The position numbers were made by a program, and so were the translations under genes. A DNA stretch of 64,000 bases from the human T2T-CHM13v2.0 reference genome, Homo sapiens: assembly GCF_009914755.1 (NCBI RefSeq), contig NC_060947.1; one strand, given 5' to 3'. Of the stretch, positions 22,186 through 51,713 are shown piece after piece; the first letter of the stretch is position 1, and each line of letters opens with the position of its first letter. The notes beneath the pieces were generated by a model. It made no database searches and had not been told where the DNA came from. It saw nothing but the letters and a program-made list of their open reading frames with translations.

Positions 22186-22399
22186 TTACCCAATAGTTTT
22201 TAAACTCTGTGAGACTTCAGCATTTTATACTGTTCTAGTGGGCTAGGGAAAAGCCATGTGTGATAGCACTGAATCCTACATCTCCCACTTCAAACAGAGC
22301 AGCTCAACTTTTATTTGTTTCTGCGTATATTGGAGGGTTGTATAAGGTCTGATCAAAAATCGGAAGGCTTCTGCTGTTAAATTTTGAAAACCAACTTAC

Positions 22400-23432
22400 T
22401 TATGTTAATTGAGATATAAATCATATATAATATAACTAACCCTTTTAAATTGTACATTTAAGTGGCTTTTAGTATACCTACAAAGTTGTACAGCCATAAT
22501 CACAAGTTAATAGCAGAACACCTTTGTCATCCCAAAAAGAAACTCTTTACCCATTAGTAGTAAAGTAGGTGCCATTCTCACCCTCACCCAGACCCTGGCA
22601 ACAACTAATCTACTTTCTGTTTTTGTGGATTTGCCTATTCCAGTCATTTCATGAAAATTGCTAAATGGACTATAGCCTTTTGTGTCTAGATTATTTTACT
22701 TCTTATATTTTTATGTTTATTCTTATAGTAGCATTTATCAGTACTTCATTCCATTTTATCGTTGAGTAATATTCTATGGTTTGTATAATAAAATATTTTG
22801 TTTATCCATTCTTTAGATGGACATTTGGGTTATTTCCACTTTCTTGCTCTTATGAATAATGTGGCTATGAATAATTGTGTATAAAGATATTGGGTAAAAA
22901 TATATTTTCAATGCTCTTCGAATATAGCTTGGAGTACACTTGCTGGGCAATATGGTAACTTTATGTTTAACTTTTTCAGGAATTACCAAATTGTTTTCCA
23001 AAGTGGCTGCAAAATTTGCCATTTTCACTAGCAACATATGAGCATTCCAATGTCACCATATCTTCAAAAACAAATTATAATTTTTTTAATTAAACTCATT
23101 ATTATGGCTGTGAAGTTTTGCATTGTAGACTTGATTTGCATGCTCTTAATAACTAATGATATTAAGCTTATATTTTGGGCTTATTGGCCATTTGTATAGC
23201 TTATTTGAAGGAAAACACTTTGATTTTTTTATTGGATTGACTACTTATTGTTGAATTATACGTTCTCTATATATTCTGTATATCAGATCCTTATAAGACA
23301 TACGGTTTACAGATATGTTCTCCCTTTGTGTAGATTGTCTTTTTATTTTCTAGATGCTATTATTTGTAGTATAAATGGCTTTTACTTTAATAAAGCTTTA
23401 TTTATTTATTTTTTTATTTGGTTACTTGTGCT
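22400..23432 (-). mobile_element. L1MB-type 3' end
   Basis: ttaattgagatataa...ccctggcaacaactaatctactttctgt...gatggacatttgggttatttccac. Confidence 0.8.
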
Positions 23433-23944
23433 TTCACCAAACTATTCTGACTCTATAATTTTATGTAATAAGTAATTGATGCCAGAGTGATCTAATAAAG
23501 TTCATAATTCTAGTTAAGATTCTAATTAATTGTGACATAAAACTTGTACTATAAATTATTGAGCCCACATTTCAAGAAGGTTTTAAGACTTAACATACTT
23601 ATACACTTTCTAACACATAAGTGCTATTGAGAAAAAATTATCTGAACTATCGTGAAAGAGGGCCAAAGACACACAATCCTATGCGGAAGGCTGAAAAACT
23701 AAACTTAATTATTCCTAGACATATTGAACTATGGAAATTGTCATGTGCTATAATTATTATGTTTTAAAAGTTCAAGAAACTTTGTAAAATATCAAAATCA
23801 TATACATTATGCATATATATATATGAAGAAATTATATACATGCAGTTTTGGATATATGTGCAAAGGAGAAATTATATGATATGTACATATGCACATATAT
23901 TATATATATTTTTATATATTCATACTGCTTACAAACAATATATG

Positions 23945-24293
23945 CAGTTGGCCTTCTGTATGAGTGGGTTTTGCAGCCATGGGTTTCATGTCAGTGAATT
24001 CAACCAAATCAGAAAAACAAATATTCAGCAAAATACTCCCACAAAGTTCCAAAAAGCAGAAGTTGAATTTGCCACACTCTGAGTACTATCTTGGATCCAT
24101 GTGAATGACGTGATGTGTAGGCATTGTATTAGGTATTATAAGTAATCTAGAGATTATCTAAAGCATGTGAGAGGATGTGCATAGGTTATATGCAAATACT
24201 TCATCATTCTATATAAGGACTTGGGCATTCACAGATTTTATTACTTGAGGGCCACCTTAGCACCAATTATTCATAAATACCAAGGGACAACTG
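23945..24293. mobile_element. MER2/MER2B (TcMar-Tigger) element
   Basis: TIRs cagttggcctt / aagggacaactg; gtattaggtattataagtaatctagagat core. Confidence 0.8.
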
Positions 24294-24495
24294 GACATTT
24301 ATGATACAGAACACAAGATCATAAGTAGTTTTGAAATTGTATTGAATATTGAGCAAAAATAAAAATATGCATTCTATAAGCTCTGACTTTGTTGAGAAAT
24401 TTATAATCATAAGCTTACAAAGTTTATAGGCTCTAAGGAGTTACTATTCATTTCCTCCTTTTACAGTTGCCTCACAGAGTGCTTCTGTCCACAGC

Positions 24496-25430
24496 ATATA
24501 TTTATATATTATATTTATATATATTATTAAATATATACTTATATATTATATTTATATATATTATTAAATATATATTTATATATTATATTTATATATATTA
24601 TTAAATATATATTTATGTATTATATTTATATATATTATTAAATATATATTTATGTATTATATTTATATATATTATTAAATATATATTTATATATTATATT
24701 TATATATTATTAAATATATATTTATATATTATATTTATATATATTATTAAATATATATTTATATATTATATTTATATATATTATTAAATATATATTTATA
24801 TATTATATTTATATATTATTAAATATATATTTATATATTATATTTATATATTATTAAATATATATTTATATATTATATTTATATATTATTAAATATATAT
24901 TTATATATTATATTTATATATATTATTAAATATATATTTATATATTATATTTATATATATTATTAAATATATATTTATATATTATATTTATATATATTAT
25001 TAAATATATATTTATATATTATAGTTTATATATTATTAAATATATATTTATATATTATATTTTATATATTATTAAATATATATTTAAATATTATATTTTA
25101 TGTTATTAAATATATATTTCTATAGTATATTTTTATATGTTATTAAATATATATTTATATAGTATGTTTATATATATTATTAAATATATATTTATATAGT
25201 ATATTTTTATATGTTATTAAATATATATTTATATAGTATGTTTATATATATTATTAAATATATATTTATATAGTATATTTATATATTATATTTATATATT
25301 ATTAAATATGTATATATTATATTTATATATATCTTTATGTATGTATATATTATATTTATATATCGTTAAATATGTGCATATATATTATATTTATATATCG
25401 TTAAATACATATGTATATATTATATTTATA
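24496..25430. repeat. Almost pure-AT minisatellite, 37-bp unit (35-bp variants), TATATTATTAAATATATATTTATATATTATATTTATA
   Basis: Roughly 25 tandem units read directly; the last units gain C/G (tatcgttaaatatgtgca, tatcgttaaatacatatg). Confidence 0.95.
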
Positions 25431-28400
25431 GGTGTCGTAAAATACCGACGTATATATTATATTTATAGGGGTTGTAAAATACCGACATATATATTATATT
25501 TATAGGGGTCGTAAAATACCGATGTATATATTATATTTATAGGGGTCGTAAAATACTGAAGTATATATTATATTTATAGGTATCGTAAAACACCGATGTA
25601 TATATTATATTTATAGGTATCGTAAAATACCGACGTATATATTATAGGTATCGTAAAATACCGACGTATATATTATATTTATAGGTGTCGTAAAATACCG
25701 ACGTATATGTTATATTCATCAGTGTCGTAAAATACCAACGTATATGTTATATTCGTAGGTGTCATAAAATACTGATGTATATGTTATATTCATAGGTGCC
25801 GTAAAATACCGACATATATGTTATATTCGTCGGTGTCATAAAATACCGACGTATATCTTATATTCGTCAGTGTCGTGAAATACCGACGTATATCTTTTAT
25901 TCGTCAGTGTAGTGAAACACCGACGTATATTTTTTATTTGCTGGTGTCGTAAAATACTGACGTATATCTTACATTTGCAGGTGTCGTAAAATACCGACGT
26001 ATAACTTATAATCGCAGGTGTCATAAAATACTGATGTAAATCTTATATTCGCTTGTATCATAAAATACTGACATATATTATGTTTATAGGTATCGTAAAA
26101 TACCGACGTATATATTATATTTATAGGTATCGTAAAATACCGCCGTATATATTATAGGTATCGTAAAATACCGACGTACATCGGTGTCATGAAATACCGA
26201 AGTATATCTTATATTCGTACGTGTTGTGAAATACCGACGTATATCTCATATTAGTCGGTGTCGTGAAATACCGACGTATATCTTTTATTCGTTGGTGTAG
26301 TGAAACACCGACATATATTTTTTATTTGCCGGTGTCGTAAAATACCGACGTATATCTTACATTCACAGGTGTCATAAAATACCGACGTATAACTATTCGC
26401 AGGTGTCATAAAATACCGACGTAAATCTTATATTCGCTTGTGTCATAAAATACCGAAATATATGTTATATTCACAGGTGCCATAAAATACCGATGTATAT
26501 GTTATATTCGTCGTTGTCATGAAACACCGACGTATACCTTATATTAGTCGGTGTCGTGAAATACCAACGTATATATTATATTTGTAGGTGTTGTAAAATA
26601 ACGTCATATATATTATATTTGTAGGTGTCGTAAAATACCGACGTATATAGTATAGGTGTCGTGAAATACCGACGTACATATTATATTCCTGGTGTCGCAA
26701 AATAACGACATATATATTACATTTGTAGGTGTCGTAAAATACCGACGTATATAGTATAGGTGTCGTGAAATACCAACGTATATCTTATATTCGTAGGTGT
26801 CGTGAAATTCCGTCGTATATGTTATATTCGTCGGTGTCGTAAAATACCGACGTGTATGTTATATTCGTCGCTGTCGTAAAATAAGGACATATATGTTACA
26901 TTCGTCGGTGTCATAAAATACCGATGTATATGTCACATTCGTCGTTGTCGTGAAATACCGACGTATACCTTATATTAGTCAGTGTCGTGAAATACCGACG
27001 TATATATTATATTTGTAGGTGTCATAAAATAACGTCATATATATTATATTTGTAGGTGTCGTAAAATACCGACGTATATAATATAGGTGTCGTGAAATAC
27101 CGACGTATGTATTATATTCGTAGGTGTCATGAAATTCCGTCGTATATGTTATATTCGTCGGTGTCGTAAAATACTGACGTATATGTTATATTCGTCGGTG
27201 TCGTAAAATACCGATATATATCTTAGATTCGTCGGTGTCATAAAATAAGGACGTATATGTTACATTCGTCAGTGTCATAAAATAACGACGTATATGTTAC
27301 ATTCGTCGTTGTCGTGAAATACCGACGTATACCTTATATTAGTCGGTGTCGTGAAATACCGGCGTATATATTATATTCATAGGTGTCGTAAAATAACGAC
27401 ATATATATTATATTTGTAGGTGTCGTAAAATACTGGCGTATATATTATAGTCTTCCGTGTCGTAAAATACCGACGTATTTGTTATAATCGTCGGCATCGT
27501 AAAATACCGACGTATATGTTATGTTCATCGGTGTCATAAAATAACAACATATATATTATATTTGTAGGTGTCGTAAAATACCGACATATATAGCATAGGT
27601 GTCGTGAAATACCGACGTATAATATTCGTAGGTGTCGTGAAATACCGACGTATATATTATATTCATAGGTGTCGTAAAATAACGACATATATATTATATT
27701 TGTAGGTGTCGTAAAATACCGACGTATATAGTATAGGTGTCGTGAAATACGGACGTATATATTATATTCGTAGGTGTCGTGAAATACCGACGTATATCTT
27801 ATATTCATAGGTGTCGTGAAATTCCGTCATATATGTTATATTCGTCGGTGTCGTAAAATACCAACGTATATCTAAGTCGGTGTCGTAAAATAAGGACGTA
27901 TATGTTACATTCGTCGGTGTCGTAAAATATCGACGTATATGTTACGTTCGTGGTTGTCGTGAAATACCGACTTATACCTTATATTAGTCAGTGTCGTGAA
28001 ATACCGGCGTATATTTTATATTCGTAGGTAAAATAACGACATATATATTATATTTGTAGGTGTCGTGAAATACCGACGTATATCTTATATTCATAGGTGT
28101 CGTGAAATTCCGTCGTATATGTTATATTCGTCGGTGTCGTAAAATACGGACGTATGTGTTATATTCGTCGGTGTCGTAAAATACCGACGTATATCTTAGA
28201 TTCGTCGGTGTCGTAAAATACCGACGTATATCTTAGATTCGTCGGTGTCGTAAAATACCGACATATATCTTAGATTCGTCGGTGTCGTAAAATACCGACG
28301 TATATGTTATATTCGTTGCTGTCGTAAAATACCGACGTATATCTTAGATTCGACAGTGTCGTAAAATACCGAAGTATATCTTATATTCGATGATGTCGTA

Positions 28401-31400
28401 AAATACCGACGTATATCTTGTATTCACTGATGTCGTAAAATACTGACGTTTTTCTTACTTTCGCAGGTGTCATAAAATACAGGTGTATAACATAATCGCA
28501 GGTGTCATAAAATACCGACATAAATCTTATATTCGCTTGTGTCATAAAATACCGAAATATATGTTATATTCACAGGTCTCATAAAATACCGATGTATATG
28601 TTATATTCGTCGGTGTCGTAAAATACCGACGTATATCTTAGATTCGTCGGTGTCGTAAAATACCGACGTATATGTTATATTCGTCGATGTCGTAAAATAC
28701 CGACGTATATCTTAGATTCGACGGTGTCGTAAAATACCGAAGTATATCTTATATTCGAGGATGTCGTAAAATGCCGACGTATATCTTATATTCACTGGTG
28801 TCGTAAAATACTGACGTGCATCTTACATTCACAGGTGTCATAAAATACAGGTGTATAACTTATAATCACAGGTGTCGTAAAATACCGACGTAAATGTTAT
28901 ATTCGCTTGTGTCATAAAATACCGAAATATATGTTATATTCACAGGTGTCATAAAATACCGATGTATAATATTCGTCGGTGTCGTAAAATACCGACGTAT
29001 ATGTTATATTCGTAGGTGCCGTAAAATACCGACGTATATGTTATATTCTTCCGTGTCGTAAAATACCGACGTATCTGTTATATTCGTCGGTGTCGTAAAA
29101 TACCGACGTATATGTTATATTCGTCGCTGTCGTAAAATACCGACGTATATCTTAGATTCGACGGTGTCGTAAAATACCGAAGTATATCTTATATTCGAGG
29201 ATGTCGTAAAATGCCGACGTATTTTACGTATGTATATGTTGTATTCGTAGGTGCCGTAAAATACCGACGTATCTGTTATATTCTTCCGTGTCGTAAAATA
29301 CCGACGTATCTGTTATAATCGTCGGTGTCGTAAAATACCGACGTATGTATCATAGTCTTCCGTGTCGTAAAATACCGACGTATTTGTTATAATCGTCAGC
29401 GTCTTAAAATACCGACGTATATGTTATATTTGTCGGTGTCGTAAAATAACGACATATATGTTATATTTGTAGGTATCGTAAAATACCGACGTATATAGCA
29501 TAGGTGTCGTGAAATACCGACGTATATATTATATTCGTAGGTGTCGTGAAATACCGACGTATATCTTATATTCGTAGGTGTAGTAAAATAACGACGTATA
29601 TGTTTTATTCGTTGGTGTCGTGAAATAACGACGCATATGTTACATTCGTTGGTGTCGTAAAATACCGACGTATATAGTATAGGTGTCGTGAAATACCAAC
29701 GTATATCTTATATTCGTAGGTGTCGTGAAATTCCGTCGTATATGTTATATTCGTTGGTGTCGTAAAATACCGACGTATATGTTATATTCGTCGGTGTCGT
29801 AAAATAAGGACGTATATGTTACATTCGTTGCTGTCATAAAATACCGACGTATATGTTACATTCGTCGTTGTCGTGAAATACCGACGTATACCTTATATTA
29901 GTCGGTGTCGTGAAATACCGACGTATATATTATATTCGTAGGTGTCATAAAATAACGTCATATATATTATATTTGTAGGTGTCGTAAAATACCGACGTAT
30001 ATAGTATAGGTGTCGTGAAATACCGACGTATATATTATATTCCTGGTGTCGTAAAATAACGACATATATAATATATTTCTACGTGTCGTAAAATACCGAC
30101 GTATATAGTATAGGTGTCGTGAAATACCGACGTATGTATTATATTCGTAGGTGTGAAATTCCCTCGTATATGTTGTATTCGTCGGTGTCGTAAAATACCG
30201 ACGTATATGTTTTATTCGTCGGTGTCGTAAAATACCAACAGATATCTTAGATTCGTCGGTGTCATAAAATAAGGACGTATATGTTACATTCGTCGGTGTC
30301 GTAAAATACCGACGTATAAGTTACATTCGTCGTTGTCGTGAAATACCGACGTATACCTTATATTAGTCGGTGTCGTGAAATACCGGCGTATATATTATAT
30401 TCGTAGGTGTCGTAAAATAATGACATATATATTATATTTGTAGGTGTCGTAAAATACCGACGTATATAGTATAGGTGTCGTGAAATACCGACGCATATAT
30501 TATATTCGTAGGTGTCGTGAAATACCAACGTATATCTTATATTCATAGGTGTCGTGAAATTCCGTCGTATATGTTATATTCGTAGGTGCCGTAAAATACC
30601 GACGTATCTGTTATATTCTTCCGTGTCGTAAAATACCGACGTATCTGTTATAATCGTCGGTGTCGTAAAATACCGACGTATATATTATAGTCTTCCGTGT
30701 CGTAAAATAACGACATATATATTATATTTGTAGGTGTCGTAAAATACCGACATATATAGCATAGGTGTCGTGAAATACCGACGTGTATATTATATTCGTA
30801 GGTGTCGTGAAATACCGACGTATATATAATATTCGTAGGTGTCATAAAATAACGACATATATATTATATTTGTAGGTGTCGTAAAATACCGACGTATATA
30901 GTATACGTGTCGTGAAATACCGACGTATATATTATATTCGTAGGTGTCGTGTAATACCAACATATATCTTGTATTCGTAGCTGTCGTGAAATTCCGTCGT
31001 ATATGTTATATTCGTCGGTGGCTTAAAATACCGACGTATATGTTGTATTCGTCGGTATCGTAAAATAAGGACGTATATGTTACATTCGTCGGTGTCATAA
31101 AATACCGACGTATACGTTACATTCGTCGTTGTCGTGAAATACCTACGTATACCTTATATCAGTCGGTGTCGTGAAATACCGATGTATATATTATATTCGT
31201 AGGTGTGGTAAAATAACGTCATATATATTATATTTGTAGGTGACGTAAAATACCGAAGTATATAGTATAGGTGTCGTGAAATACCGAAGTATATATTATA
31301 TTCCTGGTGTCGTAAAATAACGACATATATATTATATTTGTAGGTGTCGTAAAATACCGACGTATATAGTATAGGTGTCGTGAAATACCGACGTATGTAT

Positions 31401-34400
31401 TATATTCGTAGGTGTCGTGAAATTCCGTCGTATATGTTATATTCGTCGGTGTCGTAAAATACCGACGTGTATGTTATATTCGTCGGTGTCGTAAAATACC
31501 GACGTATATCTTAGATTCGTCGGTGTCATAAAATAAGGACGTATATGTTACATTCGTCAGTGTCGTAAAATACCGTCGTATATGTTACGTTCGTCGTTGT
31601 CGTGAAATACCGACGTATACCTTATATTAGTCGGTGTCGTGAAATACCGGCGTATATATTATATTCGTAGGTATCGTAAAATAACGACATATATATTATA
31701 TTTGTAGGTGTCGTGAAATACCAACGTATATCTTATATTCATAGATGTCGTGAAATACCGACGTATATATTATATTCGTAGGTGTCGTGAAATACCAACG
31801 TATATCTTATATTCGTAGGTGTCGTGAAATTCCGTCGTATATGTTATATTCGTCGGTGTCGTAAAATATCGACGTATACGTTATATTCGTCGGTCGTAAA
31901 ATACCGACGTATATGTTATATTCGTTGGTGATGTATATGTTATATTCGTCGCTGTCGTAAAATACCGACGTATATCTTAGATTCGTCGGTGTCGTAAAAT
32001 ACCGACGTATATGTTATATTCTTCCGTGTCGTAAAATACCGACGTATCTGTTATATTCGTCGGTGTCGTAAAATACCGACGTATATGTTATATTCATCGC
32101 TGTCATAAAATACCGACTTATATCTTAGATTCGGCGGTGTCGTAAAATACCGAAGTATATCTTATATTCGATGATGTCGTAAAATACCGACGTATATCTT
32201 ATATTCACTGGTGTCGTAAAATACTGACGTATATCTTATATTCACTGGTGTCGTAAAATACTGACGTATATCTAACTTTCGCAGGTGTCATAAAATACAG
32301 GTGTATAACTTATAATCTCAGGTGTCGTAAAATACCGACGTAAATCTTATATTCGCTTGTGTCATAAAATACCGAAATATATGTTATATTCACAGGTGTC
32401 ATAAAATACCGATTTATATGTTATATTCGTCGGTGTCGTAAAATACCGACGTATATGTTTTATTCGTCAGTGTCGTAAAATAACGACGCATATGTTACAT
32501 TCGTTTGTGTCGTAAAATACCGACGTATATAGTATAGGTGTCGTGAAATACTGACGTACATATTATATTCGTAGGTGTCGTGAAATACCAACGTATATCT
32601 TATACTCGTAGGTGTCGTGAAATTCCGTCGTATATGTTATATTCGTCGGTGTCGTAAAATACCGACGTGTATGTTGTATTCGTCGGTGTCATAAAATACC
32701 GACGTATATGTTACATTCGTCGTTGTCGTGAAATACCTACGTATATCTTATATTAGTCGGTGTCGTGAAATACCGACGTATATATTATATTCGTAGGTGT
32801 CGTAAAATAACGTCATATATATTATATTTGTAGGTGTCGTAAAATACCGACGTATATAGTATAGGTGTCGTGAAATACCAACGTATGTATTATATTCGTA
32901 GGTGTCGTGAAATTCCATCGTATATGTTATATTCGTCGGTGTCATAAAATACCGACGTGTATGTTATATTCGTCGGTGTCGTAAAATACCGACGTATATC
33001 TTAGATTCGTCGGTGTCATAAAATAAGGACGTATATGTTACATTCGTCGGTGTCGTAAAATACCGACGTATATGTTACGTTCGTCGTTGTGGTGAAATAC
33101 CGACGTATACCTTATATTAGTCGGAGTCGTGAAATACCGGCGTATATATTATATTCATAGGTGTCGTAAAATAACGACATATATATTATATTTGTAGGTG
33201 TCATGAAATACCGACGTATATCTTATATTCATAGGTGTCGTGAAATTCTGTCGTATATGTTATATTCGTCGGTGTCGTAAAATACCGACGTGTACGTTAT
33301 ATTCGTCGCTGTCGTAAAATACCGACGTATATCTTAGATTCGTCGGTGTCGTAAAATACCGACGTATATGTTATATTCGTCGCTGTCGTAAAATACCGAC
33401 GTATATCTTAGATTCGACAGTGTCGTAAAATACCGAAGTATATCTTATATTCGATGATGTCATAAAATACCGACGTATATCTTGTATTCACTGGTGTCGT
33501 AAAATACTGACGTTTTTCTTACTTTCGCAGGTGTCATAAAATACAGGTGTGTAACTTATAATCGCAGGTGTCGTAAAATACCGACATAAATCTTATATTC
33601 GCTTGTGTCATAAAATACCGAAATATATGTTATATTCACAGGTGTCATAAAATACCGATGTATATGTCATATTCGTAGGTGTCGTGAAATACCGACGTAT
33701 ACATTATATTCGTAGGTGTCGTAAAATAACGACATATATATTATATTTGTAGTTGTCGTAAAATACCGACGTATATAGCATAGGTGTCGTGAAATACCGA
33801 CGTATATATTATATTCGTAGGTGTCGTGAAATACCAACGTATATCTTATATTCGTAGGTGTCGTGAAATTCCGTCGTATATGTTATATTCGTCGGTGTCG
33901 TAAAATACCGACGTATATGTTATATTCGTCGGTGTCGTAAAATAAGGTCGTATATTTTACATTCGTTGGTGTCATAAAATACCGACGTATATGTTACATT
34001 TGTCGTTGTCGTGAAATACCGACGTATACCTTATATTAGTCGGTGTCGTGAAATACCGAAGTATATATTATATTTGTAGGTGTCGTAAAATACCGTCATA
34101 TATATTATATTTGTAGGTGTCGTAAAATACCGACGTATATAGTATAGGTGTCGTGAAATACCGACGTATATATTATATTCCTGGTGTCGTAAAATAACGA
34201 CATATATATTATATTTGTACGTGTCATAAAATACCGACGTATATAGCATAGGTGTCGTGAAATACCGACGTATGTATTATATTCGTAGGTGTCGTGAAAT
34301 TCCATCGTATATGTTGTATTCGTCGGTGTCGTAAAATACCGACGTATATGTTTTATTCGTCGGTGTCGTAAAATACCAACAGATATCTTAGATTCGTCGG

Positions 34401-37400
34401 TGTCATAAAATAAGGACGTATATGTTACATTCGTCATTGTGAAATACCAAAGTATACCTTATATTAGTCGGTGTCGTGAAATACCAGCGTATATATTATA
34501 TTCGTAGGTGTCGTAAAATAACGACATATATATTATATTTGTAGGTGTCGTAAAATACCGACGTATATAGTATAGGTGTCATGAAATACCGACGCATATA
34601 TTATATTCGTAGGTGTCGTGAAATACCAACGTATATCTTATATTCGTAGGTGTCGTGAAATTCCGTCGTATATGTTATATTCGTCGGTGTCGTAAAATAC
34701 CGACGTATTTATTATAGTCTTCCGTGTCGTAAAATACCGACGTATTTGTTATAATCGTCGGCATCGTAAAATACCGACGTATATGTCATGTTCGTCAGTG
34801 TCGTAAAATAACGACATATATATTATATTTGTAGGTGTCGTAAAATACCGACGTATATAGCATAGGTGTCGTGAAATACCGACCTATATATTATATTCGT
34901 CGGTGTCGTGAAATACCAACGTATATCTTACATTGGTAGGTGTCGTGAAATTCCGTCGTATATGTTATATTCGTCGGTGTCGTAAAATACCGACGTATAT
35001 GTTGTATTCGTCGGTGTCGTAAAATACCGACGTATATGTTATATTCTTCGGTGTTGTAAAATACCGACGTATATCTTAGATTCGTCACTGTCGTAAAATA
35101 CCGACATATATGTTATATTCGTCGGTGTCGTAAAATACCGACGTATATCTTAGATTCGTCGGTGTCGTAAAATACCGACATATATGTTATATTTGTTGGT
35201 GATGTATATGTTATATTCGTTGGTGTCGTAAAATACCGACGTATATCTTAGATTCGTCGGTGTCATAAAATACAGAAGTATATCTTATATTCGATGATGT
35301 CGTAAAATACCGACGTATATCTTATATTCACTGGTGTCGTAAAATACTGACTTGTATCTTACTTTCGCAGGTGTCATAAAATACAGGTGTATAACTTATA
35401 ATCTCAGGTGTCGTAAAATACCGACGTAAATCTTATATTCGCTTGTGTCATAAAATACCGAAATATATGTTATATTCACAGGTGTCATAAAATACCGATG
35501 TATATGTTATATTCGTCGGTGTTGTAAAATACCAATGTATCTGTTATATTCGTCGGTGTCGTAAAATACCGACGTATATGTTTTATTCGTCAGTGTCGTA
35601 AAATAACGACGCATATGTTACATTCGTCGGTGTCGTAAAATACCGACGTATATAGTATAGGTGTGAAATACCGACGTATATATTATATTCGTAGGTGTCG
35701 TAAAATAACGACATATATATTATATTTGTAGGTGTCGTAAAATACCGACGTATATAGTATAGGTGTCGTGAAATACCGAAGTATATATTATATTCCTGGT
35801 GTCGTAAAATAACGACATATATATTATATTTGTAGGTGTCGTAAAATACCGACGTATATACTATAGGTGTCGTGAAATACCAACGTATGTATTATATTCG
35901 TTGGTGTCGTGAAATTCCGTTGTATATGTTATATTCGTCGGTGTCGTAAAATACCAACGTATATCTTAGATTCGTCAGTGTCATAAAATAAGGACGTATA
36001 TGTTACATTCGTCGGTGTCGTAAAATACCGACGTATATGTTACGTTCGTCGTTGTGGTGAAATACCGACGTATACCTTATATTAGTTGGTGTCGTGAAAT
36101 ACCGGCGTATATATTATATTCGTAGGTGTCGTAAAATGACGACATATATATTATATTTGTAAGTGTCATGAAATACAGACGTATATCTTATATTCATCGG
36201 TGTCGTGAAATTCCGTCGTATATGCTATACTCGTCGGTGTCGTAAAATACCGAAGTATATGTTATATTCGTCGCTGTCGTAAAATACCGACGTATATCTT
36301 AGATTCGACAGTTTCGTAAAATACCGAAGTATATCTTATATTCGATGATGTCGTAAAATACCGACGTATATCTTGTATTCACTGGTGTCGTAAAATACTG
36401 ACGTTTTTCTTACTTTCGCAGGTGTCATAAAATACAGGTGTGTAACTTATAATCGCAGGTGTCGTAAAATACCGACATAAATCTTATATTCGCTTGTGTC
36501 ATAAAATACCGAAATATATGTTATATTCACAGGTGTCAGAAAATACCGATGTATATGTTATATTCGTAGGTGTCGTGAAATACCGACGTATACGTTATAT
36601 TCGTAGGTGTCGTAAAATAACGACATATATATTATATTTGTAGGTGTCGTAAAATACCGACATATATAGCATAGGTGTCGTGAAATACCGACGTGTATAT
36701 TATATTCATAGGTGTCGTGAAATACCGACGTATATATAATATTCGTAGGTGTCATAAAATAACGACATATATATTATATTTGTAGGTGTCGTAAAATACC
36801 GACGTATATAGTATACGTGTCGTGAAATACCGACGTATATATTATATTCGTAGGTGTCGTGAAATACCAACATATATCTTGTATTCGTAGCTGTCGTGAA
36901 ATTCCGTCGTATATGTTATATTCGTCGGTGGCTTAAAATACCGACGTATATGTTGTATTCGTCGGTATCGTAAAATAAGGACGTATATGTTACATTCGTC
37001 GGTGTCATAAAATACCGACGTATACGTTACATTCGTCGTTGTCGTGAAATACCTACGTATACCTTATATCAGTCGGTGTCGTGAAATACCGATGTATATA
37101 TTATATTCGTAGGTGTGGTAAAATAACGTCATATATATTATATTTGTAGGTGACGTAAAATACCGAAGTATATAGTATAGGTGTCGTGAAATACCGAAGT
37201 ATATATTATATTCCTGGTGTCGTAAAATAACGACATATATATTATATTTGTAGGTGTCGTAAAATACCGACGTATATAGTATAGGTGTCGTGAAATACCG
37301 ACGTATGTATTATATTCGTAGGTGTCGTGAAATTCCGTCGTATATGTTATATTCGTCGGTGTCGTAAAATACCGACGTGTATGTTATATTCGTCGGTGTC

Positions 37401-40400
37401 GTAAAATACCGACGTATATCTTAGATTCGTTGGTGTCATAAAATAAGGACGTATATGTTACATTCGTCAGTGTCGTAAAATACCGTCGTATATGTTACGT
37501 TCGTCGTTGTCGTGAAATACCGACGTATACCTTATATTAGTCGGTGTCGTGAAATACCGGCGTATATATTATATTCGTAGGTGTCGTAAAATAACGACAT
37601 ATATATTATATTTGTAGGTGTCGTGAAATACCAACGTATATCTTATATTCATAGATGTCGTGAAATACCGACGTATATATTATATTCGTAGGTGTCGTGA
37701 AATACCAACGTATATCTTATATTCGTAGGTGTCGTGAAATTCCGTCGTATATGTTATATTCGTCGGTGTCGTAAAATATCGACGTATACGTTATATTCGT
37801 CGGTCGTAAAATACCGACGTATATGTTATATTCGTTGGTGATGTATATGTTATATTCGTCGCTGTCGTAAAATACCGACGTATATCTTAGATTCGTCGGT
37901 GTCGTAAAATACCGACGTATATGTTATATTCTTCCGTGTCGTAAAATACCGACGTATCTGTTATATTCGTCGGTGTCGTAAAATACCGACGTATATGTTA
38001 TATTCATCGCTGTCATAAAATACCGACTTATATCTTAGATTCGGCGGTGTCGTAAAATACCGAAGTATATCTTATATTCGATGATGTCGTAAAATACCGA
38101 CGTATATCTTATATTCACTGGTGTCGTAAAATACTGACGTATATCTTATATTCACTGGTGTCGTAAAATACTGACGTATATCTTACTTTCGCAGGTGTCA
38201 TAAAATACAGGTGTATAACTTATAATCTCAGGTGTCGTAAAATACCGACGTAAATCTTATATTCGCTTGTGTCATAAAATACCGAAATATATGTTATATT
38301 CACAGGTGTCATAAAATACCGATTTATATGTTATATTCGTCGGTGTCGTAAAATACCGACGTATATGTTTTATTCGTCAGTGTCGTAAAATAACGACGCA
38401 TATGTTACATTCGTTTGTGTCGTAAAATACCGACGTATATAGTATAGGTGTCGTGAAATACTGACGTACATATTATATTCGTAGGTGTCGTGAAATACCA
38501 ACGTATATCTTATACTCGTAGGTGTCGTGAAATTCCGTCGTATATGTTATATTCGTCGGTGTCGTAAAATACCGACGTGTATGTTGTATTCGTCGGTGTC
38601 ATAAAATACCGACATATATGTTACATTCGTCGTTGTCGTGAAATACCTACGTATATCTTATATTAGTCGGTGTCGTGAAATACCGACGTATATATTATAT
38701 TCGTAGGTGTCGTAAAATAACGTCATATATATTATATTTGTAGGTGTCGTAAAATACCGACGTATATAGTATAGGTGTCGTGAAATACCAACGTATGTAT
38801 TATATTCGTAGGTGTCGTGAAATTCCATCGTATATGTTATATTCGTCGGTGTCATAAAATACCGACGTGTATGTTATATTCGTCGGTGTCGTAAAATACC
38901 GACGTATATCTTAGATTCGTCGGTGTCATAAAATAAGGACGTATATGTTACATTCGTCGGTGTCGTAAAATACCGACGTATATGTTACGTTCGTCGTTGT
39001 GGTGAAATACCGACGTATACCTTATATTAGTCGGAGTCGTGAAATACCGGCGTATATATTATATTCATAGGTGTCGTAAAATAACGACATATATATTATA
39101 TTTGTAGGTGTCATGAAATACCGACGTATATCTTATATTCATAGGTGTCGTGAAATTCTGTCGTATATGTTATATTCGTCGGTGTCGTAAAATACCGACG
39201 TGTACGTTATATTCGTCGCTGTCGTAAAATACCGACGTATATCTTAGATTCGTCGGTGTCGTAAAATACCGACGTATATGTTATATTCGTCGCTGTCGTA
39301 AAATACCGACGTATATCTTAGATTCGACAGTGTCGTAAAATACCGAAGTATATCTTATATTCGATGATGTCATAAAATACCGACGTATATCTTGTATTCA
39401 CTGGTGTCGTAAAATACTGACGTTTTTCTTACTTTCGCAGGTGTCATAAAATACAGGTGTGTAACTTATAATCGCAGGTGTCGTAAAATACCGACATAAA
39501 TCTTATATTCGCTTGTGTCATAAAATACCGAAATATATGTTATATTCACAGGTGTCATAAAATACCGATGTATATGTCATATTCGTAGGTGTCGTGAAAT
39601 ACCGACGTATACATTATATTCGTAGGTGTCGTAAAATAACGACATATATATTATATTTGTAGTTGTCGTAAAATACCGACGTATATAGCATAGGTGTCGT
39701 GAAATACCGACGTATATATTATATTCGTAGGTGTCGTGAAATACCAACGTATATCTTATATTCGTAGGTGTCGTGAAATTCCGTCGTATATGTTATATTC
39801 GTCGGTGTCGTAAAATACCGACGTATATGTTATATTCGTCGGTGTCGTAAAATAAGGACGTATATTTTACATTCGTTGGTGTCATAAAATACTGACGTAT
39901 ATGTTACATTTGTCGTTGTCGTGAAATACCGACGTATACCTTATATTAGTCGGTGTCGTGAAATACCGAAGTATATATTATATTTGTAGGTGTCGTAAAA
40001 TACCGTCATATATATTATATTTGTAGGTGTCGTAAAATACCGACGTATATAGTATAGGTGTCGTGAAATACCGACGTATATATTATATTCCTGGTGTCGT
40101 AAAATAACGACATATATATTATATTTGTACGTGTCATAAAATACCGACGTATATAGCATAGGTGTCGTGAAATACCGACGTATGTATTATATTCGTAGGT
40201 GTCGTGAAATTCCATCGTATATGTTGTATTCGTCGGTGTCGTAAAATACCGACGTATATGTTTTATTCGTCGGTGTCGTAAAATACCAACAGATATCTTA
40301 GATTCGTCGGTGTCATAAAATAAGGACGTATATGTTACATTCGTCATTGTGAAATACCAAAGTATACCTTATATTAGTCGGTGTCGTGAAATACCAGCGT

Positions 40401-43400
40401 ATATATTATATTCGTAGGTGTCGTAAAATAACGACATATATATTATATTTGTAGGTGTCGTAAAATACCGACGTATATAGTATAGGTGTCATGAAATACC
40501 GACGCATATATTATATTCGTAGGTGTCGTGAAATACCAACGTATATCTTATATTCGTAGGTGTCGTGAAATTCCGTCGTATATGTTATATTCGTCGGTGT
40601 CGTAAAATACCGACGTATTTATTATAGTCTTCCGTGTCGTAAAATACCGACGTATTTGTTATAATCGTCGGCATCGTAAAATACCGACGTATATGTCATG
40701 TTCGTCAGTGTCGTAAAATAACGACATATATATTATATTTGTAGGTGTCGTAAAATACCGACGTATATAGCATAGGTGTCGTGAAATACCGACCTATATA
40801 TTATATTCGTCGGTGTCGTGAAATACCAACGTATATCTTACATTGGTAGGTGTCGTGAAATTCCGTCGTATATGTTATATTCGTCGGTGTCGTAAAATAC
40901 CGACGTATATGTTGTATTCGTCGGTGTCGTAAAATACCGACGTATATGTTATATTCTTCGGTGTTGTAAAATACCGACGTATATCTTAGATTCGTCACTG
41001 TCGTAAAATACCGACATATATGTTATATTCGTCGGTGTCGTAAAATACCGACGTATATCTTAGATTCGTCGGTGTCGTAAAATACCGACATATATGTTAT
41101 ATTTGTTGGTGATGTATATGTTATATTCGTTGGTGTCGTAAAATACCGACGTATATCTTAGATTCGTCGGTGTCATAAAATACAGAAGTATATCTTATAT
41201 TCGATGATGTCGTAAAATACCGACGTATATCTTATATTCACTGGTGTCGTAAAATACTGACTTGTATCTTACTTTCGCAGGTGTCATAAAATACAGGTGT
41301 ATAACTTATAATCTCAGGTGTCGTAAAATACCGACGTAAATCTTATATTCGCTTGTGTCATAAAATACCGAAATATATGTTATATTCACAGGTGTCATAA
41401 AATACCGATGTATATGTTATATTCGTCGGTGTCGTAAAATACCAATGTATCTGTTATATTCGTCGGTGTCGTAAAATACCGACGTATATGTTTTATTCGT
41501 CAGTGTCGTAAAATAACGACGCATATGTTACATTCGTCGGTGTCGTAAAATACCGACGTATATAGTATAGGTGTGAAATACCGACGTATATATTATATTC
41601 GTAGGTGTCGTAAAATAACGACATATATATTATATTTGTAGGTGTCGTAAAATACCGACGTATATAGTATAGGTGTCGTGAAATACCGAAGTATATATTA
41701 TATTCCTGGTGTCGTAAAATAACGACATATATATTATATTTGTAGGTGTCGTAAAATACCGACGTATTTAGTATAGGTGTCGTGAAATACCGACGTATGT
41801 ATTATATTCGTAGGTGTCATGAAATTCCGTCGTATATGTTATATTCGTCGGTGTCGTAAAATACCGACGTATATGTTATATTCATCGGTGTCGTAAAATA
41901 CCGACAGATATCTTAGATTCGTCAGATTCGTCGGTGTCATAAAATAAGGATGTATATGTTACATTCGTCAGTGACGTAAAATACCGACGTATACCTTATA
42001 TTAGTCGGTGTCGTGAAATACCGGCGTATATATTATATTCGTAGGTGTCGTAAAATAACGACATATATATTATATTTGTAGGTGTCGTAAAATACCGACG
42101 TATATAGTATAGGTGTCGTGAAATACCGAAGTATATATTATATTCGTAGGTGTCGTGAAATACCAACATATATCTTATATTCATAGATGTCGTGAAATTC
42201 CGTCGTATATGTTATATTCGTCGGTGTCGTAAAATACCGACGTATATGTTATATTCGTCGGTGTCGTAAAATACCGACGGATATGTTATATTCGTCGCTG
42301 TCATAAAATACCGACGTATATCTTAGATTCGACGGTGTCGTAAAATACCAAAGTATATCTTATATTCGATGATGTCGTAAAATACCGACGTATATCTTAT
42401 ATTCACAGGTGTTGTAAAATACTGACATATATCGTACTTTCGCAGGTGTCATAAAATACCGATGTATATGTTACATTCGTTGGTGTCGTAAAATACCGAC
42501 ATATACGTCATATTCGTTACTGTTGTAAAATACCAACATATATGTTATATTCGTCGGTGTCGTAAAATACCAACTTATATCTTTTATTCGTCGGTGTTGT
42601 GAAATACTGACCTATATCTTTTATTGGTCAGTGTCGTGAAATACCAACGTATATCTTATATTCGTAGGTTTCGTGAAACACCGACGTATATATTATATTC
42701 GTATGTGTCGTGAAATACCGACGTATATCTTATATTCTTAGGTGTCATCAAATGCCGACATATATATTATTATCTTAGATTCGTCGGTGTCGTAAAATAC
42801 CGACGTATATGTTATATTTATAGGTGTCATAAAATACCGACGTATATCTTATATTCATAGGTGTCATCAAATGCCGACATATATATTATATTCGTAGGTG
42901 TCATAAAATAACGACGTATATATTATGTTTGTTGGTGTTGTAAAGTACCGACGTATATATTATAGGTGTCGTAAAATACTGACCTACATATTTTATTTAT
43001 AGGTGTTGTAAAATACCAATGTATATATTATAGGTGTCGTAAAATACCGACGTATATATTATATTTATAGGTGTCATAAAATACCGACGTATATATTATA
43101 TTTATAGGTGTTGTAAAATACCGACATATTTATTATAGGTATCGTAAAATACTGACGTATATATTATATTTATAGGTATCGTAAAATACCGACATATATA
43201 TTATATTTATAGGTATCGTAAAATACCGACATACATATTACAGGTGTCGTAAAATACCGACGTATAGATTATATTTGTAGGTGTTGTAAAACACCGACGT
43301 GTATATTATATTTATAGGTGTCGTAAAATAACGACATATATATTATATTTATAGGTGTCGTTAAATACCGATATATATATTATATTTATATTTATCGTTA

Positions 43401-43409
43401 AATACCGAC
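25431..43409. repeat. ~18 kb CpG-dense, AT-rich satellite/VNTR; 37-bp consensus GGTGTCGTAAAATACCGACGTATATGTTATATTCGTC (~500 monomers by length), with 31-bp variants and higher-order structure
   Basis: Continuous head-to-tail monomers; variants recur in fixed orders; no interspersed TE. Confidence 0.98.
30697..41767. repeat. Internal duplication with 5,910-bp period (30697-35857 matches 36607-41767)
   Basis: ORF-track peptides recur at exactly +5910 (32748/38658, 34031/39941, 34105/40015, 34891/40801); line-by-line near identity. Confidence 0.92.
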
Positions 43410-43465
43410 ATATATATTATATTTATATATATCATTAAATATATATTTATATAATATATTTAATA
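43410..43465. repeat. Short AT-only terminal monomers of the array
   Basis: tatatcattaaatatatatttatataatatattt matches the left-hand AT unit. Confidence 0.8.
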
Positions 43466-46400
43466 AATGTTTATTGAATTTCATGGAAATTTTACCCAGG
43501 CAGAGTTGGGCATTCTGTTTTAATGCCAAACAAACATGAAACAAACTTACTCCACACAACCCTGATAATAACCAGCCAATATTTTCTTTTTTTTTCTTTC
43601 TTAGCCCATTTATTTGCCCATACATCTGTAATAGAGACACACTGTGAGTCAGGTTTACATTTTCCCAGCAAACAGAATCATCAAACAATAGGATTTTAAA
43701 GATCTGTCTTGCTTGTATATAGGTTGTATTTCCCTAATTTTGCATATGTTAGCATTTCACCTGTTATCATCTGTGGAGTTCCCTAGATTCTGTTTCCTTC
43801 TGAAATCTGATTTCAAAAGAGGAGGAATGTTTATAAAATGTTTTATGTGCCATATCTTATATAAATATGAAAACCACATTTTCATATGGGAAAAAAATTA
43901 TAATTATTATACCTTCCTTACAATTACGTTGCTCAAAGAAAGTTAATAACTTATCCATATCATTGAGCTTTTCAGTGCCAGAGTTTAGATTTTTATCCCG
44001 GTCTGCTTAACTCCAATGCGATTCTCTTTTCTAAAGCATAAGACCAAACAAAACTATTGTTATCTTATAAAGATTACATTTCCATTGGAAATGTCACATA
44101 ATAGAAATTAAAATCTAGTATAAAGTAGGCCACTATAATTCTTTGATTCAAAAATATGAAATGGACTTTTTCCCTCTGTATCAACCTTCCATGCACCATT
44201 TCCCAACATTTTTCATTCTTTTCAAGCTGATATTCACAAAACTTTAAGTTAGAATAATGATTGTGAAACAGCATGAAACAAAGAAAGCTAAAAATACCCT
44301 AAAAGGTGAATGAATACAGGAAAACACTTTGCATAACTTGGTAAGGATGAATTTAAAATAGTTTATATTGCATAACTTTTAAGACAAAAAAACTATTGCA
44401 GAATACAATTTTCCTGCACATTACATTGAACATTTTATGCCAATTACATTAACATTTTTCCGATTCATGTTTTAGCCTGCAATCATGCACTAGATCTCAG
44501 AAAACTCATATGAAAAATAAAACAAAAACAAACCGACATGAAATAGACAATTGCTGGTCACAGTGGTAAGATAATAATTTTATGCCATAAGAAAACACAA
44601 CCAGAATATTTTCCTAGGTAATAAACTGTGTTTCCTTTTGAAATATTTACTACTAGACACTTCATCTCAATCCAGTTGAAACAACCTTTAAAACATCCCA
44701 AAGGAGTGCCATACTCTGTTCCAGAGAATTTTTGTATGTGGCTTCTCTTCGACACCCCTTAGTAATCTATTGCTAGTTTTCTCTATCTTCTCTTTTTCCT
44801 TGTTTTGTTCAACCTGAAGTGTCTCTCTTCCCACAGGCTTTAAAACATTTATATTAGTGTTTGTTGGGAGGGAATCTTGTAATGAATACATTATTAATAA
44901 ATCATTAATAACATTTATTAATGGATCATTAATATTTGCTACCTAGATATCTGGCTTTCTTTTTGTGGGTTTCATTTTCCATACTACCATGTGATCATTT
45001 AAGTCAAAGATGGAAAATAGATTTCATTTTGTGTTCCATATTCAAATAGATGGTAGTGGCATGCTACATTGAGATAAGAGTAGGAGATTATGTCTTCTTT
45101 AAATGAAGAAAAGTTACATGAACATAGATAGTTGGGTGGGTGGCTAGTGATGACAGTGTGCTATGTATTTCCCATTTTGATTGAAAATGTAGTCACTATT
45201 GAAAATATTTTCCTGTTGTATTAATTGAATATGCCCCCAAGATACACCTCTCTGATCTAGTCATACAAACTGTGAGAAGAATCTAGGATTTCTTGTAACT
45301 GCTGTGTTGTCCTAGACTGCAATATATTCCATACTAGCATTTATTGAATGCAGACTCTGCATTAGGCACAATTTTAAGTTGTTTACAGGTGTGTTAGTTA
45401 CTGTTATTATCTTCAATGTGCAGATTAGGTAACTGAGGAAACGGGGTTAGGTAAAAACACTTCAATTTCCTTCAACATATACTTTCTTTAGATAAAATGT
45501 TTTTGAGGAGTATAAGGCTATGGAAGAACAGGCAGCATTCTTGTTCCTGAAATGGTTAGTTAAATGTAAGTACCATTTATTGGAATTGATTTCAAGGCCA
45601 TAATTCACAAGTCAGACAGTGAACAATCTTTACCCTTGTACAGGATGCCTAAATTTTCTTAATTTCTCCATTGGACAGACAATACTTGGGAATCATCTAT
45701 GAAGTTGGTTTAAAAAGTTCAACTCTTTCAAGTTGTTATATTTAAAAAGATCATTATGACTAACAACCAATTCACTTGCTGTGAGAAGAGGTGGATGTGA
45801 GTCATAAAATAACTTTTAAGTCAGAAAATTGGATTTAATTCAGACTTTTCCTCCTCTTACATCAATTGAATGACAGGGATAAATGAACTTGATTTAGCTA
45901 GATTTAGAATTGGAGTTGTCTTTCTTATCTATCAAAAGCATGGCAGGACTGATCATCTGGATATCATCAGCTGATGATCAAACATGTCAAATTAATGCAG
46001 AAAAAATAAAATAATTTGTGGCATTATATTCTATAATTTATTATGTTGATTTATGACACTTTATTTATTGCAAAAATATGGCATCAAAATTTGGAATTTT
46101 ATCTACATTACGAATTGGGTAAAGTAACTTTTAATTACATTGTATACTTTAAGAAATGTGTTAGCCATTCTACTGCAATTGTAAAAATATGTCCACCCAT
46201 TAAATTTAAAACCTCCTAATTGAGATAATTCTAATACAATTTTTAAAAATTCTTCAAAGCTTCAAAAACTTCATATTTCTGATCTTGTAATAAGTATAAA
46301 ACTAAGAGATGCTTTTTCTGTGTAAGCAATGATTGTTAATATAATAGCTATTGAGTTTTCTCTTTTAGTTGAAAGCATTGTATTTTGACATCAGAAGTTA

Positions 46401-47075
46401 CATGTGAAACAATAATTGTTATAATAATTTAATTACCCACTTTAAATGACCGTATATAATGTAGTTGCTAATATATGCTGTTTTTTCTACAGAACATCAT
46501 TGACAAGATTATGTACATATTCACTATTAGCTTCGAGAACTTTTTATGTACAAAAGGCTAGTAAAAGCGCATTCAAAATTACATGTTTTAGGCTGAGGTC
46601 TCACTCCTACAGTGCCTTCAGCAAAGTTTTTGGCCTCAGATCATATTCTCAGGCAAATTGTTTTCTATAAAAACTTCCTTTCTGTATTGAAAGGCTGAAG
46701 GAATAAAATAAGGAAAAATCCCTTCATTTCTCTCAGACAGTGCAAAGGGAGAAAAATTCTCTGGATAAATACACTGACAGTTTTATTTAATGATTTGAAT
46801 ATAAATTAAATAAGTGTTTAAGAAGTAGTTTAGCTAGTTATACACTTCCTTCATTTAGACAAATAATACAATCACATTTTTTGGCATTATTGGAAATAGC
46901 ACACAATTTAGGGTCAGTTATTTCTAATTCTGATCATTCAAATTTCAAGCTCTTTGACTTTCTATGTTTTTAACATTGGCCAAGTCATTAATCTCTTAAA
47001 TGTTCAATGTATTCAATTTAGAACTTTATAAAATGTATAAAATATAGCTAATAATACAGGTACAACCTACTTCAT

Positions 47076-47240
47076 GACAGAATACAACATCCCAAAATAT
47101 TCCACTCTGGCATATTGGCAATTTCAGTTAAAGGCACTTAAAAAACAGCAGATTCAAGAAAAATGCTCTGATCTTCCTTCTCCCTTTTGTTTCTTAAAAG
47201 CAGAAGATGAAATTCCCACTTGAAAGAAGTCCTCCCTATA
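47076..47240 (+). mobile_element. MER34-like ERV1 LTR 5' fragment
   Basis: tgacagaatacaacatcccaaaatattccactctgggcat...aaaggcacttaaaaaacagcaga. Confidence 0.65.
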
Positions 47241-47603
47241 TGATATGGCTTGACTGTGTCCCCACCCAAATCTCATCTTGAGTTGTAGCTCCCATAATCC
47301 CCATGTGTCATGGGAGGGACCCAGTAGGAGGTAATTGAATCATGGGAGTAGATTTTTCCTGTGCTGTTCTTGTGATACTGAATAAGTCTCATGAGATCTG
47401 ATGGTTTTATAAAGGGTAGTTCCCCTGCATGTGCTTGTGCCAGCTGCCCTGTAAAGTCATGTATTTGCTTCTCCTTTGCCTTTTGCTATGATTGTGAGGC
47501 CTCCCCAGCCATGCAGAACTGTGAGTCCATTAAACCTCTTTTCTTTATAAATTACCCAGTCTTTGGTATGTCTTTATCAGCAGCATGAGAACAGACTAAT
47601 ACA
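47241..47603 (+). mobile_element. THE1 (C/D-like) MaLR solo LTR
   Basis: tgatatggcttgactgtgtccccacccaaatctcatcttg...gaacagactaataca; perfect TSD CTATA. Confidence 0.95.
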
Positions 47604-47769
47604 CTATATCAGAAAAAAAGTAACATTCTGCATACTGGGTGAGATAGAGACACATAAATGCCTCAAATGATCATTTACCAATGTGCTATGTGTTTATGGA
47701 GTGAAAAATAACTTTAAAAACATTTTAAGATATCTTGCATAGGCATAGGACATAAAACATTTTTTTCCT

Positions 47770-48095
47770 TCAGAGGTTTTCTCAAAATGTCACCTATTTA
47801 GTGTAATCTTCCCTGACCATTGTATTTAAAACTGCAATCTCTTCCTCTCCCAGGTATAACCACCTCAGAGTACCTCTTACTGTCTTTTCAGGTATTATTG
47901 TTCTTCTTAATATTTATCACTTTCTGACTTATATATTACAAATATATTTGTTTGTTTGTGTCTCTTCACTATATTTTGAACAGAAATTTTATTTTTCTAT
48001 TTTGTTCAATACCGTTTCCCCAACTTTTGGAATAATGACTGGCACGTAATAGCTGCTCAATAAGTATTTTTTAAATAGATAAATTAGTAAGTGAT
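47770..48095 (+). mobile_element. L2a 3' end
   Basis: aaatgtcacc...ttccctgacca...ctggcacgtaatagctgctcaataagtatt. Confidence 0.7.
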
Positions 48096-48218
48096 CAGAA
48101 AATGCTTTATATAATGGCCAACAAAGACATATAATTTTAAAATATATGAATTTTCACTTTATTGATTTATTGGCTTTCAGTTCACAGTGATTTATGACAT
48201 AAAACTTATACATTTTCA

Positions 48219-48621
<403 letters not shown>

Positions 48622-49508
48622 TTATTAAAAAGCCCTGGGGACATCTCTTATCAGATATTCGAACTGAAAATTTAGTATATGCAATCAAGTTGGTTTCATA
48701 AATACATTTTAGAGAAAATAAAAACTAATAGTATAAACAATACATCCCAGATTAATTTAAGAATTAAAGGTGTTATTTATTTTTATTTCAAAAATAAAGC
48801 AATTATAAAAAAATTCAAGTCTCTTTGTATCTGAACTCTTTTCACACCTTAATTTTATTTTATACAGTTACCTTAGAATGACAGTCACTTTATTTTCAGT
48901 TCTTGGACCCTACAAAAAAATGCTGCAATAAATATCTTTGTATATACACTCTTACAAATTGATATCCAAATCTTCACACTTTTTCATCAGGGTGTTAAAA
49001 TACAAAGACCCCTACATATCTGCCAATATTAAATGTGTTACTATTTTATATTGGAAGAGACTAATATGATAGCTCTTAATCACTTTAACTGTGATTTCCT
49101 TGACTTAGTAAATTTAAAATGTTTTTCATGTGGAATGTTTACCATTTTGGGTTGATCATCTCTGAAGTGTCTAGTCATCTATTTCCCATTCTTTTCTATT
49201 GGGATTTTTACATTTTTTCCTCGTCAATTTAAAAGAACTATGTATGCATTACAGAAGTAACTTTTTGTCTTTCTAGAGTAGTTTTGGTTTCTGTCAAAAT
49301 AATTACTAACCTGAGTTCTTGGTTCTCTCCTCCCAAAATATAAACTCTGGCAAATTATAGAAAGAATATAGAATACAGAAATCTGCAACAACAAGGAGAA
49401 AAATCCCTGGATGTCAAAAGACTGTTTTAACTTTCTGCAGGAGAAAGGTACGTGTCTATAGTCTATAGCAAGAGGCATCAGGTTCAACTCTGAAATAATA
49501 AATTTGAG

Positions 49509-51264: not shown

Positions 51265-51713
<449 letters not shown>

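What the first reader, a model, noticed from the sequence alone, without database searches (positions are those of the whole stretch)
25431..43409. An 18-kb 'AT-rich CpG island' that standard CpG-island rules would miss
Seen: the consensus has 6 C and 8 G in 37 nt (38% GC), and 5 of the 6 C are in CpG (obs/exp about 3.9 for the consensus), so roughly two thousand CpGs sit in a region that is otherwise CpG-depleted. Frequent TG/CA variants (gtcata, actgac, accaac, gacata) point to germline methylation that expansion outpaces. Established: MeCP2 prefers methyl-CpG next to runs of 4 or more A/T, and CXXC proteins read unmethylated CpG. Inference: the array may be a copy-number-variable methylation domain or reader sink.
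Basis: partly seen in the sequence, partly recalled or inferred. Interest (0 to 1): 0.75.

Follow-up and report, generated by a model that had tools for sequence, protein, structure and literature searches.

The report
Repeat at the X-to-Y duplication breakpoint
This 18-kb CpG-dense, AT-rich repeat on the human X has its only other copy on the Y, cut off mid-repeat exactly where the human X-to-Y duplicated block begins, so that copying event likely started inside it; a role as a methylation "sink" is untested.

Summary
CpG transitions run 6-10 times above other changes, consistent with germline methylation. It aligns without gaps to an adjacent AT-only 37-mer and likely grew from it by AT-to-GC changes. 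The only other copy is on Y (6,200,825-6,205,895), starts mid-unit and is followed by 98% X-like sequence: the array is the proximal end of the X-transposed region. On Y, one whole IR3 copy is bounded by the two ends of that region; the far junction holds three chromosome 7 fragments with 4-10-bp overlaps. A template-switching event likely made the transposition and IR3 together. No function of the array is shown; 1,578 CpGs in a gene desert make a weak reader sink. I found no paper describing this anatomy, but could not read the primary XTR papers.

The parts
24496..25430 (.). AT-only 37-bp tandem cap (25.6 copies, GC about 0.05), in register with the CpG unit; likely the ancestral form of the repeat
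25340..25700 (.). Left transition: units gain G/C stepwise, from 4-5 to about 10 per unit
25379..43423 (.). 37-bp CpG-dense AT-rich minisatellite, about 493 units, 1,578 CpGs; imperfectly palindromic unit; 31-bp deletion variant in 42 of 495 anchor-delimited pieces
30697..35860 (+). First copy of a 5.2-kb block repeated at offset 5,910; 9 isolated differences, 5 of them CG versus TG/CA
36607..41770 (+). Second copy of the duplicated block
31900..37950 (+). Approximate zone to which the start of the Y copy maps (best unit chain starts at 37,869, equivalent to about 31,960 in the first copy; four-unit contexts also point to about 28,990). Published XTR start = window 36,550
42970..43474 (.). Right transition back to AT-only sequence; colinear with the end of the Y array
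43481..57835 (+). Unique right flank, 98.4-98.5% identical to Y 6,205,948-6,220,000 (as far as Y was fetched): X-transposed region
22300..24460 (+). Left flank with no Y copy: genome-wide search gave only itself and old-repeat matches of at most 77% (40 of 8,460 candidates scored)

Best explanation
The array is an X-linked 37-bp minisatellite whose only other copy, on Y, is cut off mid-unit at the start of the X-transposed region, so it likely holds the proximal breakpoint of the human X-to-Y transposition, likely made by microhomology-mediated template switching that also duplicated IR3. Steps: (1) inferred: an (AT)n-derived 37-mer gained 14 G/C bases, ten of them as complementary pairs across one dyad axis, and these units expanded in the centre while older forms stayed at the edges; (2) inferred from the mutation spectrum: the CpGs are methylated in the germline and decay, and block duplications recopy units, which keeps CpG density high; (3) shown: Y sequence of the IR3 family joins the array core through a 4-bp microhomology, and the other end of that IR3 copy joins the far end of the XTR through three chromosome 7 fragments; (4) inferred: a repair or replication fork copying Y switched into the array, copied 3.9 Mb of X and returned to Y about 286 kb away; (5) inferred: the array has no selected regulatory role.
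For: 397 of 398 genome-wide matches to a 16-nt unit motif (one mismatch allowed) are in the two arrays: 313 in the window, 84 on Y, 1 on contig C1. The Y array is 6,200,825-6,205,895, 139.9 units; its right flank is 98.4% identical to the window's right flank and nothing matches the left flank or the AT-only cap. It starts with core-type units of 13.6 G/C and chains colinearly to the right part of the X array. Left of the junction is sequence 97.5% identical over 2.3 kb to Y 9.937 Mb; that copy and 4 of 4 further paralogs examined continue into an Alu-like sequence instead. At the other end that copy continues in step with 2 of 2 paralogs fetched, whereas the distal copy stops at 5,914,798. 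XTR ends at Y 5,914,561 = X 91,570,785; the 236 bp between are C7 27,985,240-275 (minus, 94%), 27,985,274-378 (94%) and 28,219,168-279 (100%), with overlaps of about 4, 0, 10 and 4 bp. The published XTR start on CHM13 X, 87,642,550, falls inside the array (PMC11168930 supplement). AT-only to core unit: 14 A/T-to-G/C changes, 1 A/T-to-A/T, none G/C-to-A/T; 26 of 37 positions pair on one axis, p 0.0025 against random placement, 0.0125 with five CpGs kept.
Against: No ape sequence could be examined, so the direction AT-only to CpG-rich and the single ancestral IR3 are not polarized by an outgroup. A 4-bp microhomology is weak alone: the motif occurs at 2.1% of array positions. The hairpin link is weak in real sequence: 148-bp pieces fold at z +2.9 to -4.0 against shuffles, 1 of 7 array or cap pieces below -2. 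Variants at dyad partners co-occur above expectation at only 1 of 13 within-unit pairs, and CpG decay can explain that one. GC-paired positions are not significant once five CpGs are kept (p 0.17). The GC gradient is confined to about 1 kb at each edge (Spearman 0.19), and Y has about 30 low-GC units in its interior, so edge-equals-old is not clean. The exact X breakpoint cannot be placed. One array in 3.9 Mb holding a breakpoint is a single event and does not show that the array is fragile.
Confidence: 0.7

Rival explanations
1. The transposition began further left and a later Y deletion cut into the array, so the junction is secondary.
For: The Y array has been remodelled since the split (140 against 493 units; a private low-GC block). 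Deletions within the Y XTR are recalled from the literature, not checked here.
Against: Both ends of the distal IR3 copy coincide with XTR termini and both carry microhomology; one event explains both. No left-flank remnant was found on Y, though only 22,300-24,460 was searched genome-wide.
Confidence: 0.12
2. The array is a functional, copy-number-variable methylation domain or sink for MeCP2 or CXXC proteins.
For: 8.8 CpG per 100 bp over 18 kb; 94% of CpGs near an A/T run; MeCP2 preference for such sites (PMC8102816 passages); different X and Y sizes would give a sex difference in dose.
Against: CpGs decay at a methylated-neutral rate with no sign of protection; no annotated gene or element within 100 kb; no Rfam match in 22,000-47,000; tiny share of genomic CpG. 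No direct data either way.
Confidence: 0.1
3. The CpG-rich unit is ancestral and the AT-only cap is its decayed end.
For: CpG decay is active and edge units are CpG-poor.
Against: Three of five CpGs correspond to AT, TT and AT in the cap, which needs transversions that deamination does not give; the cap is more homogeneous (91% matches) than the array (76%).
Confidence: 0.08

Closest known systems
X-transposed region (XTR), Xq21.3/Yp11.2
   Same: The array overlaps the published start (CHM13 X 87,642,550; Y 6,200,973) and my junctions match the other published limits.
   Different: The tables give limits only. In what I read, none notes that the end lies in this repeat, that an IR3 copy fills the space between the two ends, or the chromosome 7 fragments. 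The true Y junction is at about 6,200,825, 148 bp left of the listed limit.
CpG islands (length, GC>50%, obs/exp>0.6; criteria recalled)
   Same: CpG obs/exp 3.0 and island-like CpG density.
   Different: GC at most 0.405; tandem repeat; no gene; mutation spectrum of methylated DNA.
AT-rich fragile or palindromic repeats (FRA16B, FRA10B, PATRRs; recalled)
   Same: AT-rich, 30-40-bp near-palindromic unit; sits at a rearrangement breakpoint.
   Different: CpG-dense core; folding of real units mostly near that of shuffles; fragility untested.
FoSTeS/MMBIR and templated-insertion junctions (recalled)
   Same: Short microhomologies, a chain of small fragments from another chromosome with one inverted, flanking duplication.
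   Different: A fixed evolutionary event of 3.9 Mb plus about 286 kb, not a patient rearrangement; polymerase-theta end joining could give similar junctions.
MSR1 and HSAT6 satellites
   Same: Recalled as a 37-bp minisatellite and an AT-rich satellite.
   Different: Both are listed with 0 bp on CHM13 X and Y in the repeat table of PMC11168930.

Membership tests
CpG island | CpG obs/exp above 0.6 over 200 bp or more | tested here: met
   3.02 over 17,979 bp
CpG island | GC above 50% | tested here: not met
   0.344 overall, at most 0.405 in 200 bp
CpG island | Unmethylated in the germline | tested here: inconclusive
   No methylation data; the 6-10-fold CpG transition excess argues for methylation
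Minisatellite/VNTR | Head-to-tail units of 10-100 bp at one locus | tested here: met
   37-bp unit, 493 copies; one X locus plus its Y paralog
Minisatellite/VNTR | Copy number varies between individuals | not testable with these tools
   One X and one Y held; X versus Y size and the internal duplication only suggest it
X-transposed region boundary | About 98-99% X/Y identity on one side, none on the other | tested here: met
   98.4% on the right; no Y match on the left
Template-switch (FoSTeS/MMBIR-type) junction | Microhomology and templated insertions at junctions | tested here: met
   4 bp at the array junction; three C7 fragments with about 4, 0, 10 and 4 bp overlaps at the far junction
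AT-rich fragile site or PATRR | Unusually stable hairpin or cruciform potential | tested here: inconclusive
   Majority unit symmetric (p 0.0025-0.0125); real segments z +2.9 to -4.0
AT-rich fragile site or PATRR | Breakage or fork stalling in cells | not testable with these tools
   Needs experiments
MSR1 / HSAT6 | Annotated as that family by repeat masking | tested here: not met
   0 bp of either on CHM13 X in the published table; no direct sequence comparison was made

The most novel reading that the evidence does not exclude
The XTR and the IR3 segmental duplication were born in one template-switching event that entered the X inside this minisatellite and picked up three chromosome 7 fragments. 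The X-plus-IR3 unit reached its present place inside a single L1 on Yp as a circular permutation (late XTR, IR3, early XTR), possibly through a circular intermediate. The array that seeded it is a CpG-dense domain built from an AT microsatellite by fold-back copying.
Probability: 0.4. Interest if true: 0.78.

Novelty: new variant of a known kind. Interest (0 to 1): 0.58.

Why it matters
The XTR is a large human-specific addition to the Y, and IR3 drives a recurrent Yp inversion (Hallast preprint passages). Base-level junctions would give a testable mechanism for how both arose and would refine the 'LINE-LINE recombination' account (Schwartz 1998, seen only as a cited title). The array also keeps intermediate forms of a repeat moving from 0 to 5 CpGs per unit, against the usual direction of CpG loss, and its X and Y copies give a paired test of repeat evolution with and without recombination. 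As a regulatory element it is probably ordinary.

Tried and rejected
Other family members: none beyond X and Y except one isolated one-mismatch hit. Structured RNA: no Rfam match. Ongoing compensatory change between hairpin arms: not supported, 1 of 13 within-unit pairs and no clear excess in 17 between-unit pairs. Strong folding of real units: mostly not seen. Exact placement of the breakpoint on X: not possible. A name for the repeat: unit motifs gave no relevant paper and no hit in 4 searchable supplementary files of PMC11168930; it is not among the CHM13 X composite repeats listed. Ape conservation: 11 human-only segments listed inside the array sum to 6,043 bp by my arithmetic, which hints that the rest aligns to apes, but that table was filtered for tandem repeats, so I give it little weight. 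In-register L1-L1 recombination at the XTR split: the X and Y sequences at the break did not align to each other, so end joining fits better; tested on 500, 330 and 600 bp only.

Full report
Observation. TRF finds a 37-bp array at 25,379-43,423 (493.4 copies, 76% matches) and, just left of it, an AT-only array of the same period at 24,496-25,430 (25.6 copies, 91%).

Methylation signal. I pooled 412 full-length units from X and Y, leaving out the 145 X units of the second duplicate copy and all gapped units. I took types seen once that differ by one base from a commoner type, assuming rare means derived. Of 90 such changes, 41 are CpG transitions: 15.9 per 1,000 positions against 2.8 at other C/G and 1.6 at A/T. 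Of 9 isolated differences in the internal duplication, 5 are CG versus TG/CA. In the colinear right end of the X and Y arrays, 17 of 134 CpG columns differ by a transition against 5 of 785 others; the unique flank differs at 31 of 3,994. This fits germline methylation. It is an inference, not a measurement.

Origin of the CpGs. The AT-only unit and the majority unit align without gaps, and edge units are intermediate; mean G/C per unit rises from 8.2 within 150 bp of an edge to about 13 beyond 2 kb. The difference is 14 A/T-to-G/C changes, one A/T-to-A/T and none the other way; ten of the 14 form five complementary pairs on one dyad axis. Random placement keeps 26 paired positions with p 0.0025, or 0.0125 when five CpGs are imposed; the count of GC-paired positions is then not significant (p 0.17). 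Fold-back copying or GC-biased conversion between units could do this. Real segments mostly fold like their shuffles and present-day variants do not co-vary across the dyad, so the hairpin step is weakly supported. Three CpGs face AT, TT and AT in the cap, which argues against the cap being a deamination product.

Turnover. A 5.2-kb block (30,697-35,860) recurs at offset 5,910 with near identity. Y holds about 30 low-GC units in its interior that this X lacks. Block duplication and deletion therefore reshape the array.

The Y copy. A 16-nt motif with one mismatch has 398 genomic matches: 313 in the window, 84 on Y and one on C1. The Y array spans 6,200,825-6,205,895 and is followed by sequence 98.4% identical to the window's right flank; the left flank and cap are absent from the 30 kb fetched, and 22,300-24,460 has no close match elsewhere among 40 scored candidates. 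The Y array begins mid-unit in core-type repeats and chains to X units from about 37,869 (or 31,960) to the right edge. The supplement of Makova et al. 2024 (PMC11168930) starts the XTR at X 87,642,550, window 36,550, and labels Y 5,914,561-6,200,973 ampliconic.

Junction anatomy. Left of the Y array is sequence with a 97.5% inverted copy ending at Y 9,937,125; that copy and 4 of 4 older paralogs examined run on into an Alu-like sequence, and the join to the array shares 4 bp. The duplicated segment (IR3 by position; name recalled and) extends to Y 5,914,798 = 10,238,668, where the proximal copy continues in step with 2 of 2 paralogs fetched and the distal copy does not. The distal copy is thus the derived one. 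The XTR's far end is Y 5,914,561 = X 91,570,785, and the 236 bp between are three pieces of C7 (taken as chromosome 7), one inverted, with short overlaps (40 of 338 candidates scored, and the middle piece lies partly in a repeat with other matches up to 93% over 43 bp). The XTR is split at X 87,835,351-359, with 9 bp present on both Y blocks. The Y sequences outside the two blocks align 11 bp apart on one old L1 copy. So Y carries late XTR, IR3, early XTR inside one broken L1: a circular permutation. Insertion between direct IR3 copies followed by two inversions, or excision and reinsertion as a circle, give the same junctions, and I cannot separate them. Hallast et al. infer the reference IR3 orientation as ancestral among living men, which the circle gives without a further fixed inversion.

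Function. No gene or element is annotated within 100 kb (hub note) and Rfam finds nothing. The CpGs lie near A/T runs by a loose measure of my own, so MeCP2 binding is plausible if they are methylated, but binding in proportion to density is not a function. I rate the sink idea at 0.1.

Literature seen. Ten searches found no paper naming the array or these junctions. Passages only: Rhie preprint (plus section 6), Makova preprint, Hallast preprint, two versions of the 2026 Y-population preprint, PMC4065359, PMC5816366, PMC6315018, PMC8102816. PMC11168930: supplement term searches and 2 of 162 parts of one file; one file was unreadable. Ross 2005, Hoyt 2022 and the journal version of Rhie 2023 were not obtained; Schwartz 1998 and Skaletsky 2003 were not read. 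Any of them may describe part of this, and T2T repeat tracks may name the array.

Verdict. A real, unusual minisatellite, probably methylated and neutral, whose interest is that it marks the proximal end of the X-to-Y transposition and leads to a readable mechanism for it. Interest 0.58.

Noticed in passing
L055 (Y 5,914,558-5,914,801): The far XTR junction on Y is a chain of three chromosome 7 fragments (36 bp inverted, 105 bp, 112 bp) between the X end and the IR3 copy.
   Followed up: yes
L056 (Y 2,727,073), L057 (Y 6,400,875), L062 (X 87,835,351-359): The XTR split duplicates 9 bp of X; short local repeats are inserted at both Y junctions; the outer Y flanks are adjacent halves of one L1.
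   Followed up: partly
window 52,079-52,373: An Alu present on X and absent from the Y copy, also listed as a human insertion; probably inserted after the transposition.
   Followed up: partly
L014 (Y 6,203,781-6,204,860): About 30 diverged low-GC, edge-type units inside the Y array with no counterpart block on this X.
   Followed up: partly
L057 (Y about 6,401,200-6,402,170): A 970-bp element with many 97-98% copies genome-wide, about 330 bp beyond the XTR end; likely a young solo LTR (recalled from its size).
   Followed up: no
L060 (X 91,573,535-91,573,896): An (AT)n-type tract lies 2.7 kb beyond the distal XTR end on X; the break is not in it.
   Followed up: no
L014:1-830: The Y sequence left of the junction has 12 other Y copies (86-98%) and a 78% copy on C3 at 149.55 Mb.
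   Followed up: no
window 25,379-43,423: The array is not among the hub's listed masked stretches although the AT-only cap is, so pipelines that rely on that mask would treat it as unique.
   Followed up: no
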